From: Escherichia phage teqhal
Reading direction: 5' to 3' (one strand)
Sequence record: MN895435.1
Length of the DNA stretch: 64,000 nt
Shown piece by piece: positions 3,661 to 44,898 of this stretch. Positions within the stretch are counted from its first letter, which is position 1, and every line of letters starts with the position of its first letter. A model generated the notes under the pieces. The model made no database searches. It saw only the letters and a list, made by a program, of their open reading frames with translations, and had not been told where the DNA came from. A program made the translations under genes and the position numbers.

Positions 3661-3817
3661 TTTATACGGAGTTTGATATAATGATATTTCTTGGATATGT
3701 GATACTTTTTCTTGCATTTTATCTATTCACTAGAGCATGTTGGATTGGGTTCTTTAGTACTCCAGATGGATTTATTTCAATAATTTTATTTTGCATTTCA
3801 ATGACGGTTCTTGATAT

Positions 3818-4837
3818 ATGAAAATTTTAAATTTAGGTGATTGGCATTTAGGCGTTAAAGCCGATGATGAGTGGGTTCAATCCATTCAGTTGGATGGAAT
3901 TAAACAAGCAATAGAATATTCTAAGAAAAATGGAATTACTACCTGGATTCAATACGGTGATATTTTTGATGTGCGAAAAGCAATCACACACAAAACTATG
4001 GAGTTCGCCCGTGAAATAGTTCAAATGCTTGATGATGCTGGTATTACCCTACATACTATTGTAGGAAACCATGATATGCACTTTAAAAATACTTTAACTC
4101 CAAATGCCTCTACTGAGCTTTTGGCTAAATATCCTAATGTTAAAGTATATGATAAGCCTACTACAGTAGATTTTGACGGATGTTTAATTGATTTAATTCC
4201 TTGGATGTGTGAAGAAAATACTGGTGAAATTCTTGAGCATATCAAAACTTCATCTGCTTCTTTTTGTGTTGGTCACTGGGAACTGAATGGATTTTATTTT
4301 TATAAAGGAATGAAATCTCACGGTCTTGAACCTGATTTCCTTAAGACTTATAAAGAAGTGTGGTCTGGTCACTTCCATACTATTTCTGAGGCTGCAAACG
4401 TCAGATATATTGGGACACCATGGACACTAACTGCAGGTGACGAGAATGACCCTCGTGGGTTCTGGATGTTTGATACAGAAACAGAACGAATGGAATTTAT
4501 TCCAAACAACACTACTTGGCATCGTAGAATTCATTATCCATTTAAAGGAAAAATTGACTATAAAGATTTTACAAATCTATCAGTACGTGTTATAGTAACT
4601 GAAGTAGACAAAAATCTGACGAAGTTCGAATCTGAACTAGAAAAAGTTGTGCATTCATTACGAGTTGTGTCAAAGATTGATAACTCTGTCGAGTCAGATG
4701 ACAGTGAAGAAGTTGAAGTTCAATCTCTTCAGACGTTGATGGAAGAATACATTAATGCAATTCCAGACATCACTGATTCTGACCGTGAAGCACTTATTCA
4801 ATATGCAAATCAGTTATATGTAGAGGCAACACAATGA
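3818..4837 (+). CDS. 47: recombination/repair nuclease gp47 (Mre11-like)
   Basis: 339 aa, phosphoesterase motifs GDWH and GNHD, T4 gp47 length. Confidence 0.9.
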   Translation: MKILNLGDWHLGVKADDEWVQSIQLDGIKQAIEYSKKNGITTWIQYGDIFDVRKAITHKTMEFAREIVQMLDDAGITLHTIVGNHDMHFKNTLTPNASTELLAKYPNVKVYDKPTTVDFDGCLIDLIPWMCEENTGEILEHIKTSSASFCVGHWELNGFYFYKGMKSHGLEPDFLKTYKEVWSGHFHTISEAANVRYIGTPWTLTAGDENDPRGFWMFDTETERMEFIPNNTTWHRRIHYPFKGKIDYKDFTNLSVRVIVTEVDKNLTKFESELEKVVHSLRVVSKIDNSVESDDSEEVEVQSLQTLMEEYINAIPDITDSDREALIQYANQLYVEATQ

Positions 4838-11309: not shown

Positions 11310-14006
11310 ATGAAAGAATTTTATATCTCTATCGAAACAGTCGGAAATAACATTGTTGAACGTTATATTGATGAAAACGGAAAGGAACGTACTCGTGAAG
11401 TAGAATATCTTCCAACTATGTTTAGGCATTGTAAGGAAGAGTCAAAGTACAAAGACATTTATGGTAAAAATTGCGCTCCTCAAAAATTTCAATCAATGAA
11501 AGATGCTCGAGATTGGATGAAGCGAATGGAAGACATCGGTCTCGAAGCTCTTGGTATGAACGATTTTAAACTCGCTTATATCAGTGATACGTATGGTTCA
11601 GAAATTGTTTATGACCGAAAATTTGTTCGTGTAGCTAACTGTGACATTGAGGTTACTGGTGATAAATTTCCTGACCCAATGAAAGCTGAATATGAAATTG
11701 ATGCTATCACTCATTATGATTCAATTGACGATCGTTTTTACGTCTTTGATTTGTTGAATTCAATGTACGGTTCAGTATCAAAATGGGATGCAAAGTTAGC
11801 TGCTAAGCTTGACTGTGAAGGTGGTGATGAAGTTCCTCAAGAAATTCTTGACCGAGTAATTTATATGCCATTTGATAATGAGCGTGATATGCTCATGGAA
11901 TATATTAATCTCTGGGAACAGAAACGACCTGCTATTTTTACCGGTTGGAATATTGAGGGATTTGACGTTCCGTATATCATGAATCGTGTTAAAATGGTTC
12001 TCGGTGAACGTAGTATGAAACGCTTCTCTCCAATCGGTCGAGTAAAATCTAAACTAATTCAAAATATGTACGGTAGCAAAGAAATTTATTCTATTGATGG
12101 CGTATCTATTCTTGATTATTTAGATTTGTACAAGAAATTCGCTTTTACTAATTTGCCGTCATTCTCTTTGGAATCAGTTGCTCAACATGAAACCAAAAAA
12201 GGTAAATTACCGTATGATGGTCCTATTAATAAACTTCGTGAGACTAATCATCAACGATACATTAGTTATAACATCATTGACGTAGAATCAGTTCAAGCAA
12301 TTGATAAAATTCGCGGGTTTATCGATCTAGTTTTAAGTATGTCTTATTACGCTAAAATGCCTTTTTCTGGTGTAATGAGTCCTATTAAAACCTGGGATGC
12401 TATTATTTTTAACTCATTGAAAGGTGAACATAAGGTTATTCCTCAACAAGGTTCGCACGTTAAACAGAGTTTTCCGGGTGCATTTGTGTTTGAACCTAAA
12501 CCAATTGCTCGTCGATATATTATGAGTTTTGACTTGACGTCTCTGTATCCGAGCATTATTCGTCAGGTTAACATTAGTCCTGAGACTATTCGTGGACAAT
12601 TTAAAGTTCATCCAATTCATGAATATATCGCAGGAACAGCTCCTAAGCCAAGTGAAGAATATTCTTGTTCTCCGAATGGATGGATGTATGATAAGCATCA
12701 AGAAGGTATCATTCCAAAGGAAATCGCTAAAGTATTTTTCCAGCGTAAAGACTGGAAAAAGAAAATGTTCGCTGAAGAAATGAATGCCGAAGCTATTAAA
12801 AAGATTATTATGAAAGGCGCAGGGTCTTGTTCAACTAAACCAGAAGTTGAACGATATGTTAAGTTCACTGATGATTTTTTAAATGAACTGTCGAATTACA
12901 CCGAATCTGTTCTCAATAGTCTGATTGAAGAATGTGAAAAAGCGGCTACACTTGCTAATACAAATCAGCTGAACCGTAAAATTCTCATTAACAGTCTTTA
13001 TGGTGCTCTTGGTAATATTCATTTCCGTTACTATGATTTGCGAAATGCTACTGCTATCACAATTTTTGGCCAAGTCGGTATTCAGTGGATTGCTCGTAAA
13101 ATTAATGAATATCTGAATAAAGTATGCGGAACTAATGGCGAAGATTTCATTGCAGCAGGTGATACTGATTCGGTATATGTTTGTGTAGATAAAGTTATTG
13201 AAAAAGTTGGTCTTGACCGATTCAAAGAGCAGAACGATTTAGTTGAATTCATGAATCAGTTCGGTAAGAAAAAGATGGAACCTATGATTGATGTTGCATA
13301 TCGTGAGTTATGTGATTATATGAATAACCGCGAGCATCTGATGCATATGGACCGTGAAGCTATTTCTTGCCCTCCACTTGGTTCAAAGGGCGTTGGTGGA
13401 TTTTGGAAAGCGAAAAAGCGTTATGCTCTGAACGTTTATGATATGGAAGATAAGCGTTTTGCTGAACCACATCTAAAAATCATGGGTATGGAAACTCAGC
13501 AGAGTTCAACGCCTAAAGCGGTCCAAGAAGCTCTCGAAGAAAGTATTCGTCGTATTCTTCAGGAAGGTGAAGAGTCTGTCCAAGAATATTACAAGAACTT
13601 CGAGAAAGAATATCGTCAACTTGACTATAAAGTTATTGCTGAAGTAAAAACTGCGAACGATATAGCGAAATATGATGATAAAGGTTGGCCAGGATTTAAA
13701 TGTCCGTTCCATATTCGTGGTGTGCTAACTTATCGTCGAGCTGTTAGCGGTTTAGGTGTAGCTCCAATTTTGGATGGAAATAAAGTAATGGTTCTTCCAT
13801 TGCGTGAAGGAAATCCATTTGGTGACAAGTGCATTGCTTGGCCGTCGGGTACAGAACTTCCAAAAGAAATTCGTTCTGACGTACTGTCTTGGATTGACTA
13901 CTCAACTTTGTTCCAAAAATCGTTTGTTAAACCGCTTGCAGGCATGTGTGAATCGGCTGGTATGGACTATGAAGAAAAAGCTTCGTTAGACTTCCTGTTT
14001 GGCTGA
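11310..14006 (+). CDS. 43: DNA polymerase gp43 (family B)
   Basis: 898 aa, same length as T4 gp43, exonuclease and polymerase motifs (DTDS), no intein or intron. Confidence 0.95.
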   Translation: MKEFYISIETVGNNIVERYIDENGKERTREVEYLPTMFRHCKEESKYKDIYGKNCAPQKFQSMKDARDWMKRMEDIGLEALGMNDFKLAYISDTYGSEIVYDRKFVRVANCDIEVTGDKFPDPMKAEYEIDAITHYDSIDDRFYVFDLLNSMYGSVSKWDAKLAAKLDCEGGDEVPQEILDRVIYMPFDNERDMLMEYINLWEQKRPAIFTGWNIEGFDVPYIMNRVKMVLGERSMKRFSPIGRVKSKLIQNMYGSKEIYSIDGVSILDYLDLYKKFAFTNLPSFSLESVAQHETKKGKLPYDGPINKLRETNHQRYISYNIIDVESVQAIDKIRGFIDLVLSMSYYAKMPFSGVMSPIKTWDAIIFNSLKGEHKVIPQQGSHVKQSFPGAFVFEPKPIARRYIMSFDLTSLYPSIIRQVNISPETIRGQFKVHPIHEYIAGTAPKPSEEYSCSPNGWMYDKHQEGIIPKEIAKVFFQRKDWKKKMFAEEMNAEAIKKIIMKGAGSCSTKPEVERYVKFTDDFLNELSNYTESVLNSLIEECEKAATLANTNQLNRKILINSLYGALGNIHFRYYDLRNATAITIFGQVGIQWIARKINEYLNKVCGTNGEDFIAAGDTDSVYVCVDKVIEKVGLDRFKEQNDLVEFMNQFGKKKMEPMIDVAYRELCDYMNNREHLMHMDREAISCPPLGSKGVGGFWKAKKRYALNVYDMEDKRFAEPHLKIMGMETQQSSTPKAVQEALEESIRRILQEGEESVQEYYKNFEKEYRQLDYKVIAEVKTANDIAKYDDKGWPGFKCPFHIRGVLTYRRAVSGLGVAPILDGNKVMVLPLREGNPFGDKCIAWPSGTELPKEIRSDVLSWIDYSTLFQKSFVKPLAGMCESAGMDYEEKASLDFLFG

Positions 14007-14015
14007 TAGAATAAA

Positions 14016-14040
14016 TCTAGGGACATCCGGGTCCCTTTTT
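14016..14040 (+). terminator. hairpin TAGGGACATCCGGGTCCCTTTTT
   Basis: stem-loop plus T-run after gene 43. Confidence 0.55.
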
Positions 14041-14123
14041 CATACAAGTAATATAAATCTATACTTATGAAAAACAGATGATTCTGGACCTTTAGAATTC
14101 CCTAAAAAAATTTTCACAAAACT

Positions 14124-14156
14124 GTTTACAAGACTGTTCTTCCATGGTACTATACA
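14124..14156 (+). promoter_or_regulatory. T4-type early promoter (GTTTACA ... TACTATA) with A/T-rich UP region
   Basis: GTTTACAAGACTGTTCTTCCATGGTACTATACA, conserved cassette. Confidence 0.55.
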
Positions 14157-14187
14157 ACTATCAACTAATACGGATTTGGAGAATAAA

Positions 14188-14424
14188 ATGAAAATTGTTA
14201 TGGGATGCTTAGCAGTTTGTTTAGTTGCATTAGCAGCAGTTCCATTTGTTAGTGTTGAAAATGATACTCAACCTGTGATTGAATCTAGCACCGTTATTCA
14301 CACTAATGGTAAAATATCAGTTAAAATTGATGATAATCTTCATGTGAATACAAATGGATCTTTAGGTGTGCAAATGGGTAATACCTGCGTAAGCACTACT
14401 GGAGTAATTACTACTTGCATTTGA
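14188..14424 (+). CDS. small secreted protein (signal peptide)
   Basis: 78 aa from ATG 14188 (track ORF begins at upstream TTG); hydrophobic N-terminus MKIVMGCLAVCLVALAAVPF. Confidence 0.5.
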   Translation: MKIVMGCLAVCLVALAAVPFVSVENDTQPVIESSTVIHTNGKISVKIDDNLHVNTNGSLGVQMGNTCVSTTGVITTCI

Positions 14425-14434
14425 GGAAATTATT

Positions 14435-14815
14435 ATGAAAATCGCTATTTTGGTTATTGCATTAGGTCTTACTGGTTGTGTAGCTCAAGGACCGGTAGTA
14501 AATCAGTCTGATGCAGGAAAAATTGTAAACTGTTCAAGCAAATTTTATAATCCTAATGTCAAGTGTTATAAAGAAGCTCCAAAGCAAACAGTAGAACAAA
14601 TGCAGGCGAATTTTGACGAAGCTATTCGTCCAGATGAATCTGCTCAAGCATATCGTAATTCAGATGTAATTACACGCGAAGAAAAAATTGAAAACTACTG
14701 CGCCGAAATTTGGGCTAATTGGGCTAATAATTACCAATGGCGTACTGGTAAAAATGCTCCGATGGAGTATGTAGTGAATTCTTATAATTCATGTGTAAAA
14801 AATTTGACTAAGTGA
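14435..14815 (+). CDS. putative lipoprotein
   Basis: 126 aa, lipobox LTGC after signal peptide MKIAILVIALGLTGC, several Cys pairs. Confidence 0.55.
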   Translation: MKIAILVIALGLTGCVAQGPVVNQSDAGKIVNCSSKFYNPNVKCYKEAPKQTVEQMQANFDEAIRPDESAQAYRNSDVITREEKIENYCAEIWANWANNYQWRTGKNAPMEYVVNSYNSCVKNLTK

Positions 14816-14822
14816 GGAAAAC

Positions 14823-15074
14823 ATGGAAACTTTAGTAGCAGGTTCAATTTTTATGGTTTTAGTTTCAGGTGTGTTGGCTATTATTATATACATGCTTCCA
14901 TGGTTTATCGCCTTGATGCGTGGGTCAAAATCTACAGTAGGAATCTTTTTCACGTCTTTACTGTTTAACTGGTCAATTATTGGTTGGTTTATTACATTTA
15001 TTTGGTCAATTGCGGGTGAAACTAAAAAGTCTGCACAACCAAATCAGGTAATTATCATCAGAGAGAAGGAATGA
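14823..15074 (+). CDS. imm: superinfection immunity protein Imm
   Basis: 83 aa two-TM membrane protein at the T4 imm position between 43 and 42. Confidence 0.75.
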   Translation: METLVAGSIFMVLVSGVLAIIIYMLPWFIALMRGSKSTVGIFFTSLLFNWSIIGWFITFIWSIAGETKKSAQPNQVIIIREKE

Positions 15075-15220
15075 AAAGCAAAATTATAACAGTGTTGCTT
15101 TTAATCTTGATGGTTATAATAAGTATATACTATAGCGTAACAGTTCCTGCTATGATTCCAACTCTTATCATAGGGTGGGGTTTATTACTGTTACAAGTTA
15201 AATATGAATGTATCAATTGA
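15071..15220 (+). CDS. small membrane peptide (49 aa)
   Basis: ATGA overlap with imm stop; MKSKIITVLLLILMVIISIYY; not in ORF track (under 60 aa). Confidence 0.35.
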   Translation: MKSKIITVLLLILMVIISIYYSVTVPAMIPTLIIGWGLLLLQVKYECIN

Positions 15221-15227
15221 GGTTTAA

Positions 15228-15968
15228 ATGATTAGTGACTCTATGGCAGTTGAAGAAATCCGTCTTCATTTGGGGCTTGCATTAAAAGAAAAAGATTTCG
15301 TAGTTGATAAAACTGGCGTTAAAACTATTGAAATTATTGGCGCATCATTTGTAGCAGATGAACCGTTTATTTTTGGCGCTCTTAATGATGAATACATTCA
15401 GCGTGAACTTGAATGGTACAAGTCTCAAAGTCTGTTTGTTAAAGATATTCCGGGTGAAACACCAAAGATTTGGCAGCAGGTAGCATCTTCTAAAGGCGAA
15501 ATTAACTCGAATTATGGTTGGGCTATTTGGTCAGAAGATAACTATGCCCAGTATGATATGTGTTTAGCTGAACTTGGTCAAAATCCTGATTCTCGGCGTG
15601 GTATCATGATTTATACTCGTCCATCCATGCAATTTGACTACAATAAAGATGGTATGTCAGATTTCATGTGTACTAATACAGTACAGTACCTGATTCGTGA
15701 TAAGAAAGTCAATGCAGTAGTAAGCATGCGCTCAAATGACGTGGTCTTCGGATTCCGTAATGATTATGCATGGCAAAAATACGTATTAGATAAATTAGTA
15801 TCTGATTTGAATGCAGGCGATTCAACTCGTCAGTATAAAGCAGGTTCTATTATATGGAATGTTGGAAGTCTTCATGTATATTCTCGTCATTTTTACTTGG
15901 TTGATCATTGGTGGAATACTGGCGAAACTCATATTGTGAAAAAAGACTATAAAGGTGAGTGGAAATGA
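15228..15968 (+). CDS. 42: dCMP hydroxymethylase gp42
   Basis: 246 aa, thymidylate-synthase-like fold, T4 gp42 length. Confidence 0.9.
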   Translation: MISDSMAVEEIRLHLGLALKEKDFVVDKTGVKTIEIIGASFVADEPFIFGALNDEYIQRELEWYKSQSLFVKDIPGETPKIWQQVASSKGEINSNYGWAIWSEDNYAQYDMCLAELGQNPDSRRGIMIYTRPSMQFDYNKDGMSDFMCTNTVQYLIRDKKVNAVVSMRSNDVVFGFRNDYAWQKYVLDKLVSDLNAGDSTRQYKAGSIIWNVGSLHVYSRHFYLVDHWWNTGETHIVKKDYKGEWK

Positions 15969-16807
15969 TTCAATTCGTAATTCCAAGTTATCAACGCGTC
16001 GGGGCAGTTTCTGCCCTTGATATGTTTCCATCTGATTATGAACCGCATATTGTAGTACGTGAACACGAAGAAAAAGCTTATTATGATGCCTATGGGTCTA
16101 GAGCTAAAATTATAACTATTCCTGATGACGTAAATGGAATTGCCGGTACTCGTAAAGCAATTACTGATATGTATGCAGGTCAACGAATCTGGATGATTGA
16201 CGATGATACTACTATTCGTATGAGTTCAATGCGAAAAAGAGATGACCGTCGTTGTGTGGATAAAGTCAATCAATTGACTCATGAACAGTTCTATGAATTG
16301 ATTCAATACGTCGAAGATGCCATGGATTGCGGGTATTATCATGGTCATGCTCGCCTACCAATTTTTAAAATTACTTCATCTTGGGGTAATTATCGTGAAA
16401 ATTCATATGGATTCACGAATACATGGTATGACCTTGGAAAACTTACGACAGAACAAATTGGGTATGGAAAAATTGATTTGTGCGAAGATATGTATGCATT
16501 TCTCAATTTAATTAATCAAGGTTATCCGCATTTGGCCCTGTTCAAATATCTAGTTGTATCTGGAAAAGCACAAGCTCCTGGCGGGTGTAGTTCAATTCGT
16601 AGTAATTCTAAACATAATAGAGCGCTTGAGCAAATCAATAGAGAGTTTCCAGAGCAAGCTCGTTGGAAAACTTCTAATATTGAAAAACGAAAATCGTTGG
16701 GTGAAGAAGACGAGCCATTAAAGGTTCTTCGCATGTGTGTTTCGCGTAAAGAAAAATCAGAAGCATTTCATAAGTTTAATGCTATTCATCCGATAGCAGT
16801 TGATTAA
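15965..16807 (+). CDS. putative glycosyltransferase (GT-A-like, DxD) at the locus occupied by beta-gt in T4
   Basis: 280 aa from ATG 15965 (ATGA overlap with gene 42); WMIDDDTTIR DxD-type motif; not alignable to remembered T4 beta-gt (351 aa). Confidence 0.6.
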   Translation: MIQFVIPSYQRVGAVSALDMFPSDYEPHIVVREHEEKAYYDAYGSRAKIITIPDDVNGIAGTRKAITDMYAGQRIWMIDDDTTIRMSSMRKRDDRRCVDKVNQLTHEQFYELIQYVEDAMDCGYYHGHARLPIFKITSSWGNYRENSYGFTNTWYDLGKLTTEQIGYGKIDLCEDMYAFLNLINQGYPHLALFKYLVVSGKAQAPGGCSSIRSNSKHNRALEQINREFPEQARWKTSNIEKRKSLGEEDEPLKVLRMCVSRKEKSEAFHKFNAIHPIAVD

Positions 16808-41992: not shown

Positions 41993-42190
41993 ATGAAGCG
42001 TAAACGCAGTGCTTTTACATTTATTGAATGGTTTTTCGATAATATTTTTCCGGCTTTATTCATTTTCATGCTTATTTTTGCCTTGGGTTCAGTTGTAGTT
42101 GGAATCTATTTGATGACAGTAGTCGGAATTGATATTCATCAAAATGGTTTAAAATCTGTGGTTGAAACAATTTGGAATGGTGTAAAATAA
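41993..42190 (+). CDS. small membrane protein (65 aa)
   Basis: ATG after GAGGAAAAT RBS; hydrophobic segment FPALFIFMLIFALGSVVVGIYL. Confidence 0.4.
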   Translation: MKRKRSAFTFIEWFFDNIFPALFIFMLIFALGSVVVGIYLMTVVGIDIHQNGLKSVVETIWNGVK

Positions 42191-43127: not shown

Positions 43128-43286
43128 ATGAATATTGCAAAATTATTAGGAGTTATTTCATTTATTTGTTGGATAGTAGCATGTGTTTTAACTATCTGTA
43201 TCGATGCTAGCAGTGTGTTTTCGCAAGCTTTAGCTCAGGGTATGTGTGCATATTTAACATTTGTGTTGTTATCTACTAATGATTAA
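43128..43286 (+). CDS. ac: small membrane protein, Ac-like (acridine sensitivity)
   Basis: 52 aa hydrophobic peptide MNIAKLLGVISFICWIVACVLTICID at the T4 ac position; absent from ORF track. Confidence 0.5.
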   Translation: MNIAKLLGVISFICWIVACVLTICIDASSVFSQALAQGMCAYLTFVLLSTND

Positions 43287-43423
43287 GAAAATCTTGGGCT
43301 ATTCATTAGCCCTTGCTACTTTATTAGTAGCACTATATTATGGAGTAATGTTCGGATTGATTCAAGTCGTGCTTTTCATTTCTGATGTTATTATGGCACT
43401 ACATTCACTAGTATGGTAAATTT

Positions 43424-44752
43424 ATGCAACTGAATAATCGCGATTTAAAAAGTATCATTGATAATGAAGCATTGGCTTATGCTATGTACACGGTTGAAAA
43501 TCGTGCTATTCCAAATATGATTGATGGATTTAAGCCAGTTCAACGATTTGTTATTGCTCGAGCTCTTGATTTGGCACGAGGAAATAAAGATAAGTTTCAC
43601 AAACTTGCTTCTATTGCAGGTGGTGTAGCGGACCTTGGATATCACCATGGTGAAAACTCTGCACAAGATGCAGGGGCTTTGATGGCTAATACTTGGAATA
43701 ATAACTTTCCTTTGTTAGATGGTCAAGGAAACTTCGGTTCTCGTACTGTCCAAAAGGCAGCAGCTAGTCGTTATATTTTTGCTCGTGTAAGTAAAAATTT
43801 CTATAACGTATATAAAGATACTGAATATGCTCCAGTACATCAAGATAAAGAACACATTCCGCCTGCTTTCTATTTGCCTATTATTCCTACTGTTCTTCTT
43901 AATGGTGTTTCCGGTATTGCAACTGGTTATGCAACTTACATTCTTCCTCATAGTGTTTCTTCTGTCAAGAAAGCTGTACTGCAAGCTCTTCAAGGAAAGA
44001 AAGTAACTAAACCGAAGGTAGAATTCCCAGAATTTCGTGGTGAAGTCGTTGAGATTGATGGGCAATATGAAATTCGTGGAACATACAAGTTTACTTCACG
44101 AACTCAAATGCATATCACTGAGATTCCGTATAAGTATGATCGTGAAACTTATGTGAGTAAAATCTTAGACCCACTTGAAGATAAAGGCTTCATTACGTGG
44201 GATGATGCTTGTGGTGAGCATGGCTTTGGCTTTAAAGTTAAATTCCGTAAAGAATATTCTTTGAGCGATAATGAAGAAGAACGCCATGCAAAAATTATGA
44301 AAGACTTCGGGTTGATTGAGCGTCGTTCCCAAAATATTACCGTTATTAATGAGAAAGGAAAGCTACAAGTTTACGATAACGTAGTTGATTTAATCAAAGA
44401 CTTCGTTGAAGTTCGTAAAACTTATGTCCAAAAACGAATTGATAACAAAATCAAAGAAACTGAATCAGCATTTCGTTTAGCCTTTGCCAAGGCGCATTTC
44501 ATTAAGAAAGTAATTTCAGGTGAAATTGTTGTACAGGGTAAAACTCGTAAAGAACTGACCGAAGAACTTTCTAAAATTGAGATGTATTCTTCTTATGTTG
44601 ATAAACTAGTTGGAATGAATATTTTTCATATGACTTCTGATGAAGCAAAGAAACTTGCTGAAGAAGCTAAAGCTAAAAAAGAAGAAAACGAATATTGGAA
44701 AACTACTGATGTAGTTACAGAATACACTAAAGATTTAGAGGAAATCAAATGA
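43424..44752 (+). CDS. 52: topoisomerase II medium subunit gp52 (GyrA-like)
   Basis: 442 aa, same length as T4 gp52. Confidence 0.9.
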   Translation: MQLNNRDLKSIIDNEALAYAMYTVENRAIPNMIDGFKPVQRFVIARALDLARGNKDKFHKLASIAGGVADLGYHHGENSAQDAGALMANTWNNNFPLLDGQGNFGSRTVQKAAASRYIFARVSKNFYNVYKDTEYAPVHQDKEHIPPAFYLPIIPTVLLNGVSGIATGYATYILPHSVSSVKKAVLQALQGKKVTKPKVEFPEFRGEVVEIDGQYEIRGTYKFTSRTQMHITEIPYKYDRETYVSKILDPLEDKGFITWDDACGEHGFGFKVKFRKEYSLSDNEEERHAKIMKDFGLIERRSQNITVINEKGKLQVYDNVVDLIKDFVEVRKTYVQKRIDNKIKETESAFRLAFAKAHFIKKVISGEIVVQGKTRKELTEELSKIEMYSSYVDKLVGMNIFHMTSDEAKKLAEEAKAKKEENEYWKTTDVVTEYTKDLEEIK

Positions 44753-44898
44753 GTCCATTCATTGGTATTACAAGCGCTGCATTAGTATCTGGCGGCATTT
44801 TACTAGCGGGGGTAGGTGTTGTTCCAGCCGTAGCAGGAGGTCTTCTTGCGTTCGGCATTCAACGTGTTATCATGACAGTTATCACAGTCATGCAGTAA
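44749..44898 (+). CDS. small Gly/Ala/Val-rich membrane peptide (49 aa)
   Basis: ATGA overlap with gene 52 stop; absent from ORF track. Confidence 0.4.
   Translation: MSPFIGITSAALVSGGILLAGVGVVPAVAGGLLAFGIQRVIMTVITVMQ

What the first reader, a model, noticed from the sequence alone, without database searches (positions are those of the whole stretch)
14188..15220. Envelope-targeted four-gene cluster around imm: secreted protein, lipoprotein, Imm and a 49 aa membrane peptide
Directly after gene 43 and its terminator, an early promoter drives a signal-peptide protein (78 aa), a lipobox lipoprotein (126 aa, Cys-rich), the superinfection immunity protein Imm and an overlapping 49 aa membrane peptide. 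The two proteins upstream of Imm are candidates for additional superinfection-exclusion or receptor-masking functions, by analogy with phage lipoproteins that block outer-membrane receptors.
Basis: partly seen in the sequence, partly recalled or inferred. Interest (0 to 1): 0.5.

Follow-up and report, generated by a model that had tools for sequence, protein, structure and literature searches.

The report
T-even imm locus: four envelope genes
This is the well-known superinfection-immunity (imm) locus of a T4-like phage. Its neighbours are a conserved outer-membrane lipoprotein (Imm.1) that usually travels with imm, a strain-variable small exported protein that T4 has lost, and a tiny conserved membrane protein. 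All three are real genes of untested function, and receptor masking is unlikely.

Summary
Four consecutive + strand ORFs sit at exactly the stated coordinates, after the gene 43 terminator and a T4-type early promoter, and each has a strongly hydrophobic segment. The window is a Tequatrovirus, 99.8% identical to phage FL08.

- **126-aa lipoprotein:** this is T4 Imm.1 (DUF5481, phrog_1754). It has a canonical lipobox and no Asp at +2, which predicts outer-membrane sorting. The model shows a floppy tether followed by a helical hairpin carrying a conserved Cys pair. It is under strong purifying selection (pN/pS 0.05).
- **Link to imm:** the family lies next to imm in eight Tevenvirinae-type lineages, in either order. 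In Mosigvirus the pair sits together beside spackle.
- **Limits on that link:** Winklervirus and Kanagawavirus have the lipoprotein with no imm beside it, and Imm alone excludes T4. Imm.1 is at most an accessory.
- **Receptor masking:** unlikely, because Imm.1 is about 97% identical in T2 and T4, which use different receptors (receptor use from general knowledge).
- **orf78:** confined to Tequatrovirus, in about 65% of records. T4 lacks it through an exact 247-nt deletion, and T2 has an unrelated gene in its place. It evolves faster (pN/pS 0.38).
- **orf49:** a conserved small membrane protein (phrog_3610), not annotated in T4 RefSeq and not tied to imm.

No function was demonstrated for any of the three. 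Interest is modest.

The parts
14019..14044 (+). Intrinsic-terminator-like hairpin (AGGGAC-ATCCGG-GTCCCT) plus T-run, 12 nt after the gene 43 stop codon
   Evidence: terminator scan. Conserved in T4. Annotated as a rho-independent terminator in phage DalCa.
14124..14153 (+). T4 early-promoter-like site: GTTTACA, 17-nt spacer, TGgTACTAT (extended -10)
   Evidence: 9 of 12 matches, TG present. Identical in T4 and in an IMG/VR contig that lacks orf78. Pattern and conservation only; no transcript data.
14178..14181 (+). Shine-Dalgarno GGAG serving orf78. In T4 the same site serves imm.1 directly.
   Evidence: Sequence reading.
14188..14424 (+). orf78 (78 aa, phrog_4189). Its N-terminal hydrophobic segment (residues 3-21) is either a signal peptide or a signal anchor. 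A 55-aa periplasm-facing part follows, built from three T-[NT]-G beta-hairpin repeats, with Cys67 and Cys77 placed to form a C-terminal disulfide. Strain-variable accessory gene.
   Evidence: Absent from T4 through an exact 247-nt indel.
14435..14815 (+). imm.1 (126 aa; DUF5481/PF17578, phrog_1754): lipoprotein precursor, predicted to be outer-membrane anchored
14468..14479 (+). Lipobox codons L12-T13-G14-C15 of Imm.1. The +2 residue is Val, not Asp.
   Evidence: Cys15 nearly invariant, Gly14 invariant. The profile's N-terminus weakly matches the lipoprotein signal peptides of BamD and FlgH.
14823..15074 (+). imm (83 aa): superinfection immunity inner-membrane protein
   Evidence: PF14373 E=7.7e-16; phrog_1039; 98.8-100% identical to T4 and T2 Imm.
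15071..15220 (+). orf49 (49 aa, phrog_3610): small, very hydrophobic membrane protein whose start overlaps the imm stop codon (ATGA). Present but not annotated in T4 RefSeq.

Best explanation
This is the imm locus of a T-even phage. It is a short early transcription unit that starts at a T4-type early promoter just after the gene 43 terminator, and it encodes four small cell-envelope proteins.

**Shown or established**

- Imm is the known inner-membrane protein that blocks DNA entry from superinfecting T-even phages by binding the tape-measure protein gp29.
- The 126-aa ORF is T4 Imm.1. It belongs to a lipoprotein family restricted to T4-like phages (phrog_1754/DUF5481).
- That family lies beside imm in most lineages, in either gene order. 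In Mosigvirus the pair sits next to spackle rather than downstream of gene 43.

**Inferred**

- Imm.1 is lipidated at Cys15 and, lacking Asp at +2, is sorted by Lol to the inner leaflet of the outer membrane.
- From there a flexible tether of about 35 residues presents a helical hairpin into the periplasm. The conserved Cys89 and Cys120 are placed to staple that hairpin with a disulfide.
- My preferred mechanism is that Imm.1 is a non-essential accessory of the envelope-immunity function. It would meet or hold the incoming tail tip or tape-measure protein, or stabilise the envelope, on the outer-membrane side, while Imm acts at the inner membrane and Spackle acts on the gp5 lysozyme. It would not act by masking a receptor.
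- orf78 is a dispensable, fast-evolving cargo gene occupying a swappable slot between the promoter and imm.1. It encodes a periplasm-exposed beta-hairpin mini-protein that plausibly acts in phage-phage or phage-host competition.
- orf49 is a conserved two-segment membrane mini-protein that is translationally coupled to whichever gene precedes it. It belongs to the region downstream of gene 43 rather than to imm.
For: **Identity and anatomy:**

**Selection:** pN/pS is 0.05 for Imm.1, 0.04 for Imm, 0.38 for orf78 and 0.37 for orf49.

**Lipobox:** conserved across 22 diverse family members, none of which has Asp at +2.

**Adjacency of a phrog_1754 lipoprotein to imm:**

- Tequatrovirus
- Mosigvirus (coordinates for ATK47 and p000v)
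- Gelderlandvirus S16
- A Klebsiella T4-like phage
- Muldoonvirus PS2
- Karamvirus CkP1
- Gaprivervirus SP18 and Dhakavirus IME08, where the order is reversed

Family membership of all of these was confirmed.

**Record-level co-occurrence of Imm and the lipoprotein:**

- 501 against 501 records in Tequatrovirus
- 156 against 155 in Mosigvirus
- 135 against 135 Klebsiella-named records. At least one of the Klebsiella imm hits is a 39-kb phage that is not T4-like.

**Mosigvirus layout:** the pair lies beside sp while the orf49 homologue lies downstream of gene 43.

**Structure model:** residues 1-38 have pLDDT below 50, and confidence stays low to about residue 50. Helices 81-104 and 110-125 reach about 88-90 and carry Cys89 and Cys120.

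**Imm mechanism:** binds the tape-measure protein and excludes T4 when expressed alone from a plasmid (bioRxiv 10.64898/2026.03.06.709160).

**orf78 as a variable gene:**
Against: - No experiment links Imm.1, orf78 or orf49 to exclusion, and no paper in the searchable library mentions imm.1 or DUF5481.
- Imm alone suffices for exclusion of T4.
- Winklervirus CHI14 has the lipoprotein directly after gene 43, yet an Imm HMM found nothing in 143 of its 171 kb.
- Kanagawavirus PEi20 and CIP9 have no imm within 1.5 kb of the lipoprotein.
- The adjacency could therefore largely be inherited position downstream of gene 43, and the Mosigvirus arrangement could reflect a single event.
- The Imm.1 model is only moderately confident (mean pLDDT 65). 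It gave no informative fold match and no related solved structure by sequence.
- The orf78 model is poor (pLDDT 47).
- Outer-membrane sorting is inferred from the +2 rule and was not measured.
Confidence: 0.4

Rival explanations
1. The genes are neighbours by ancestry only. The stretch downstream of gene 43 is a plastic region that collects small early genes. On this view Imm.1, orf78 and orf49 are envelope proteins with functions unrelated to Imm, such as envelope stabilisation during infection, interference with host envelope-based defences, or modulation of host lipoprotein or outer-membrane biogenesis.
For: - The lipoprotein is present without an adjacent imm in CHI14, PEi20 and CIP9.
- orf49 homologues follow an arabinose-5-phosphate isomerase gene rather than imm in Mosigvirus, Winklervirus and Kanagawavirus.
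- The orf78 slot holds different genes, or none, in different phages.
- Imm works alone.
Against: - In Mosigvirus the lipoprotein lies with imm beside sp, not at the locus downstream of gene 43 where related genera keep it.
- Gene order between the two genes is reversed in Dhakavirus and Gaprivervirus, yet they remain adjacent.
- Co-occurrence is near-perfect in three large lineages.
Confidence: 0.35
2. One reading: Imm.1 and/or orf78 mask or inactivate the outer-membrane receptor of the phage, as the T5 Llp and phi80/N15 Cor lipoproteins do.
For: - Imm.1 is a predicted outer-membrane lipoprotein expressed early.
- orf78 is strain-variable, as a receptor-specific factor might be.
Against: - Imm.1 is 96.8% identical in T2 and 97.6% identical in T4 compared with the window, although these phages use different protein receptors (established knowledge).
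- Imm.1 has no homology to Llp or Cor. The only Cor-family hit is to the signal-peptide region of the PS2 homologue, at E=8e-4.
- An inner-leaflet lipoprotein cannot mask LPS.
- T4 excludes well without orf78 (T4 lacks the gene).
Confidence: 0.07
3. orf78 and/or orf49 are regulators of lysis timing, as the signal-anchor-release antiholin RI and other small T4 membrane proteins are, rather than exclusion factors.
For: - orf78 has an Ala/Gly/Cys-rich N-terminal hydrophobic segment followed by a small periplasmic domain. That is the general layout of T4 RI (established knowledge; sequence).
- orf49 is a tiny two-segment membrane protein.
Against: - No sequence similarity to RI, holin T or spanins in Pfam, PHROGs or NCBIfam.
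- The genes are in an early unit far from the rI, t and spanin genes.
- T4, the model phage for lysis inhibition, lacks orf78.
Confidence: 0.08

Closest known systems
T4 imm.1-imm locus (NC_000866 genes T4p046 and T4p045)
   Same: Same genes in the same position. Imm.1 is 97.6% identical and Imm 98.8% identical to T4. The promoter, terminator and orf49 are conserved.
   Different: The window carries orf78, a 247-nt segment between the promoter and imm.1 that T4 lacks. In T4 the orf78 ribosome-binding site is joined directly to the imm.1 start codon through an ATGAAAAT microhomology. T4 RefSeq does not annotate orf49 and labels Imm.1 'iduronate sulfatase', a name that none of the Pfam, PHROGs or NCBIfam searches supports.
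Ltp of Streptococcus phage TP-J34 (superinfection-exclusion lipoprotein reported to target the tape-measure protein)
   Same: A phage-encoded lipoprotein on the outer side of the cytoplasmic membrane that blocks DNA injection rather than adsorption. This is the closest functional analogue for what Imm.1 might do alongside Imm. PMC3952083 describes Ltp as an exclusion lipoprotein; its tape-measure target is from my own knowledge.
   Different: No sequence or fold similarity was detected. Ltp is from a Gram-positive host and acts alone. Imm.1's role is untested, and the known tape-measure binder in T4 is Imm.
T5 Llp and Cor (phi80, N15): receptor-blocking outer-membrane lipoproteins
   Same: Small phage lipoproteins expressed to protect the infected cell (PMC9586334 for Llp).
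   Different: No homology. Imm.1 does not vary with receptor specificity. See the membership test.
T4 Spackle (gp61.3)
   Same: An early, exported, helical, disulfide-containing exclusion protein. In Mosigvirus it lies immediately downstream of the imm.1-imm pair (PMC7677548).
   Different: Not homologous: hhalign aligns only the signal peptides.

Membership tests
Imm superinfection immunity protein (PF14373) | Significant match to the Imm_superinfect profile and near-identity to T4 Imm | tested here: met
   PF14373 E=7.7e-16, above the gathering score. phrog_1039 E=3.6e-32. 98.8-100% identical to T4 and T2 Imm.
Imm.1 / DUF5481 (PF17578) / phrog_1754 | Profile match over the full length | tested here: met
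   PF17578 E=1e-70. phrog_1754 E=9e-44. 97.6% identical to T4 Imm.1.
Bacterial lipoprotein (SPase II substrate) | Lipobox [LVI][ASTVI][GAS]C at the end of a positively charged, hydrophobic N-terminus, with Cys at positions 15-35 | tested here: met
   MKIAILVIALGLTG|C with Cys15. Cys is at least 90% conserved and Gly-1 is invariant across 22 homologues. One relative, P0018, has an ordinary signal peptide instead. LipoP and SignalP were not available.
Bacterial lipoprotein (SPase II substrate) | Actual lipid modification and outer-membrane localisation | not testable with these tools
   Only the +2 rule could be applied: Val at +2, and no Asp at +2 in any homologue.
Receptor-blocking lipoproteins (T5 Llp, Cor) | Homology to Llp or Cor | tested here: not met
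   No Pfam, PHROGs or NCBIfam hit for Imm.1 or orf78. The only Cor-family hit is to residues 1-40 (the signal peptide) of the PS2 homologue, E=8e-4.
Receptor-blocking lipoproteins (T5 Llp, Cor) | Specificity for the phage's own receptor, so the protein should differ between phages that use different receptors | tested here: not met
   Imm.1 is 96.8-97.6% identical in T2 and T4 compared with the window. Their different receptors are established knowledge.
Sec signal peptide protein (orf78) | n-, h- and c-regions with an AXA-type SPase I site | tested here: inconclusive
   The n-region (MK) and a 19-residue hydrophobic stretch are present. Only atypical sites (ALA|A, LAA|V) occur inside the hydrophobic stretch. 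The 85-aa variants have a 7-residue duplication in this segment that creates an L-A-A-C lipobox-like motif, and UniRef names them 'Lipoprotein'.
Spackle (gp61.3) | Sequence homology of the mature domain | tested here: not met
   hhalign aligns only residues 1-18, the signal peptide.
Spanin (o-spanin lipoprotein) | Lipoprotein gene paired with or embedded in an i-spanin gene within a lysis cassette | tested here: not met
   Imm.1 is flanked by orf78 and imm in an early unit. Relatives such as CHI14 carry separate annotated Rz-like spanins elsewhere.

The most novel reading that the evidence does not exclude
Imm.1 is a third, outer-membrane-anchored component of T-even superinfection immunity. 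Tethered to the inner leaflet of the outer membrane, its helical hairpin would engage the incoming tail-tip or tape-measure complex, or Imm itself, in the periplasm. Imm.1, Spackle and Imm would then form a layered barrier across the envelope. The strain-variable orf78 would be an additional competition factor directed at other T-even lineages.
Probability: 0.25. Interest if true: 0.6.

Novelty: new member of a known kind. Interest (0 to 1): 0.3.

Why it matters
T4 superinfection exclusion is a classic problem, and its molecular basis is only now being resolved: Spackle inhibits the gp5 lysozyme, and Imm binds the tape-measure protein. A strongly conserved lipoprotein of unknown function (Imm.1) usually sits beside imm, and in Mosigvirus sits with it next to spackle. 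That makes it an obvious, cheap candidate for a missing accessory component, and a concrete target for deletion and co-expression tests.

The analysis also corrects annotation. 'Iduronate sulfatase' for Imm.1 has no support. orf49 is a conserved gene missing from the T4 reference. orf78 marks a gene-swapping slot that T4 has emptied.

If the three proteins have nothing to do with exclusion, the locus is just an ordinary set of small early phage membrane proteins.

Tried and rejected
- **Remote homology for Imm.1.** Tried Pfam, NCBIfam, PHROGs, PADLOC, a PDB sequence profile, Foldseek against PDB and BFVD, and an exhaustive phmmer of 1.84 billion representatives. Only T4-like phage relatives were found (six clusters at E<=1e-3), and no informative fold.\n- **Homology of Imm.1 to Spackle.** Rejected; only the signal peptides align.\n- **Homologues of orf78.** 14 near-identical clusters, all Tequatrovirus-type. 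No Pfam, NCBIfam or PADLOC hit, and no convincing PDB hit (best E=0.22).\n- **Structure of orf78.** The AlphaFold model is too poor (pLDDT 47) to justify a fold search.\n- **Microcin idea for orf78.** I considered a microcin-like peptide because of the C-terminal C-x9-C loop. The single-protein scan of IMG/VR returned only 5 loci.\n- **Literature.** No paper in the library mentions imm.1 or DUF5481. The T4 genome review (PMC150520) is not held.
Full report
**1. What is in the sequence**

The window is a Tequatrovirus. Positions 14000-15300 match 515 phage records, and the best is Escherichia phage FL08 at 99.8%.

- Gene 43 (DNA polymerase) ends at 14006.
- A hairpin with a T-run lies at 14019-14036, and a site of the TTTACA-17-TACTAT type with an upstream TG lies at 14125-14153. 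Both are conserved in T4.
- Phage DalCa annotates the hairpin as a rho-independent terminator.
orf49 overlaps the imm stop codon as ATGA.
- Downstream come gene 42 and a TAGT-like glycosyltransferase.

Only 11 of 101 non-overlapping ORFs in the window have a strongly hydrophobic 17-residue stretch, and four of those are these neighbours. The clustering is therefore not chance (rough p of about 0.01).

Nei-Gojobori comparisons over 8-14 distinct alleles give these pN/pS values:

| Gene | pN/pS |
|---|---|
| Imm.1 | 0.05 |
| Imm | 0.04 |
| orf78 | 0.38 |
| orf49 | 0.37 |
| gene 42 (for reference) | 0.04 |

All four are real coding genes. The two small ones are under looser constraint.

**2. The lipoprotein is T4 Imm.1**

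The 126-aa ORF matches DUF5481 (E=1e-70) and phrog_1754. It is 97.6% identical to T4 Imm.1. RefSeq's product name 'iduronate sulfatase' has no support in any search.

The N-terminus, MKIAILVIALGLTG|C, meets the lipobox rule. Gly-1 is invariant and Cys+1 is at least 90% conserved across 22 diverse relatives. The +2 residue is never Asp. By the E. coli sorting rule (established knowledge) this predicts outer-membrane anchoring.

AlphaFold2 with a 22-sequence alignment gives a mean pLDDT of 65:

- Residues 1-38 are below pLDDT 50, and confidence stays low to about residue 50.
- Helices 81-104 and 110-125 are confident (pLDDT about 88-90) and carry Cys89 and Cys120, which are conserved across the family.

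I found no relative with a known function and no informative fold match. This covers Foldseek against PDB and BFVD, a PDB sequence profile, an exhaustive phmmer and PADLOC. Imm.1 is not homologous to Spackle.

**3. Linkage with imm**

A phrog_1754 lipoprotein with a lipobox lies next to imm in the following lineages. Family membership was confirmed.

| Lineage | Arrangement |
|---|---|
| Tequatrovirus | lipoprotein, then imm |
| Gelderlandvirus S16 | lipoprotein, then imm |
| Klebsiella T4-like phage | lipoprotein, then imm |
| Muldoonvirus PS2 | lipoprotein, then imm |
| Karamvirus CkP1 | lipoprotein, then imm |
| Gaprivervirus SP18 | imm first (reversed order) |
| Dhakavirus IME08 | imm first (reversed order) |
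| Mosigvirus | pair lies between the dmd region and spackle |

In Mosigvirus the pair is not at the locus downstream of gene 43. The orf49 homologue is still there, behind an arabinose-5-phosphate isomerase gene.

Record counts agree:

| Lineage | Records with Imm | Records with the lipoprotein |
|---|---|---|
| Tequatrovirus | 501 | 501 |
| Mosigvirus | 156 | 155 |
| Klebsiella-named records | 135 | 135 |

At least one of the Klebsiella imm hits is a 39-kb phage that is not T4-like, so that count is approximate.

**4. Limits of that inference**

- Winklervirus CHI14 and Kanagawavirus PEi20 and CIP9 have the layout 43 | lipoprotein | isomerase-like ORF (annotated as arabinose-5-phosphate isomerase in CHI14), with no imm nearby. 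CHI14 and PEi20 also annotate the 47-aa orf49 homologue after it.
- An Imm HMM found nothing in 143 of CHI14's 171 kb. The unscanned 28 kb is the late structural block.
- Imm expressed alone excludes T4 and binds the tape-measure protein (bioRxiv 10.64898/2026.03.06.709160).

Imm.1 is therefore neither required for Imm's basic activity nor dependent on Imm for its own retention. The best reading is a non-essential accessory of envelope immunity (confidence about 0.4). 'Unrelated neighbour by ancestry' is a strong rival (0.35).

Receptor masking is unlikely. Imm.1 is almost invariant between T2 and T4, which use different receptors, and it has no similarity to Llp or Cor.

**5. orf78**

orf78 belongs to phrog_4189. 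It has only 14 protein clusters, all close Tequatrovirus-type relatives. It is found in 325 records, about 65% of the 501 Tequatrovirus records.

- T4 and one IMG/VR contig lack it through an exact 247-nt difference. That difference joins the orf78 ribosome-binding site to the imm.1 ATG across an ATGAAAAT repeat.
- T2 and the orf78 carriers share imm.1's own ribosome-binding site (GAGGAAATTATT; GAGGAAATTGTT in some carriers). T4 is therefore the deletion derivative.
- T2 carries an unrelated 83-aa ORF (phrog_18567) in the same slot.
- Phage CT01 shows a scrambled partial duplication there.

The protein has MK followed by a 19-residue hydrophobic stretch. That stretch tolerates 7-residue tandem duplications, and one of them creates an LAAC lipobox-like motif. 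Next come three repeats of about 15 residues with T-[NT]-G turns, and the sequence ends in C-x9-C-I.

The AlphaFold model is poor (pLDDT 47). It does place six short strands exactly on these repeats.

Whether the N-terminus is cleaved or acts as an anchor cannot be decided here. The function is unknown. T4's proficiency without the gene shows that it is dispensable.

**6. orf49**

orf49 belongs to phrog_3610 and is found in 765 records across several genera. It is present but not annotated in T4 RefSeq.

In every locus examined where it is annotated, its start overlaps the stop codon of the preceding gene. That gene is imm in Tequatrovirus and SP18, and the isomerase gene in Mosigvirus, Winklervirus and Kanagawavirus. 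It belongs to the locus downstream of gene 43, not to imm.

**7. Verdict**

This is a genuine early envelope-protein cluster, and Imm.1 is a reasonable but unproven candidate accessory of superinfection immunity.
- The receptor-masking analogy is disfavoured, and orf78 and orf49 are not specifically tied to imm.
- All four genes are already catalogued in databases.
- What this analysis adds is the cross-genus linkage of the lipoprotein with imm, the deletion origin of T4's arrangement, and the annotation corrections.

Noticed in passing
L003 2537-2830 (Mosigvirus AlbertHofmann spackle): The Spackle signal peptide ends in a lipobox-like L-A-V-S-C motif (MKKLSLAAILLAVSC). From memory, T4 Sp has a similar LASC motif ahead of its reported cleavage site. 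This raises the question of whether some Spackle proteins are lipid-anchored.
   Followed up: no
window 15959-16807: The ORF after gene 42 is a 282-aa TAGT-like glycosyltransferase (PF20691, E=1e-9) that overlaps the end of gene 42. T2 annotates the ORF in the corresponding position as beta-glucosyl-HMC-alpha-glucosyltransferase. T4's beta-gt and segA are absent here, so the phage appears to be T2/T6-like in its DNA glucosylation genes.
   Followed up: partly
L018 1000-1850 (Shigella phage CT01): The region from the promoter to imm.1 is rearranged. A truncated imm.1 N-terminus is followed by an orf78 fragment fused to a second copy of the promoter region and a full imm.1. The pattern is consistent with recombination at the short repeats flanking the orf78 slot, or with an assembly error.
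   Followed up: partly
L019 1037-1288 (phage T2): T2 carries an unrelated, non-hydrophobic 83-aa ORF (phrog_18567) in the slot that orf78 occupies in most Tequatroviruses. The slot between the early promoter and imm.1 is therefore a site of gene exchange.
   Followed up: partly
L001 3137-3514 (T4 RefSeq imm.1): RefSeq names Imm.1 'iduronate sulfatase', and the name has spread to T2, ECML-134 and other records. No search supports it, so it looks like an annotation error.
   Followed up: yes
L008 395-799 (Serratia phage PS2): Between gene 43 and the imm-linked lipoprotein, PS2 has another ORF of 134 aa with a classical signal peptide (…PTAFA|ST). It matches no PHROG family. This is another exported protein in the same neighbourhood in a distant relative.
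   Followed up: no
window 3681-3821, 41993-42190, 43128-43419, 44749-44898: Several other short ORFs of 46-65 aa in the window have very hydrophobic segments, including two adjacent ones at 43128-43419. They may be further small membrane proteins.
   Followed up: no
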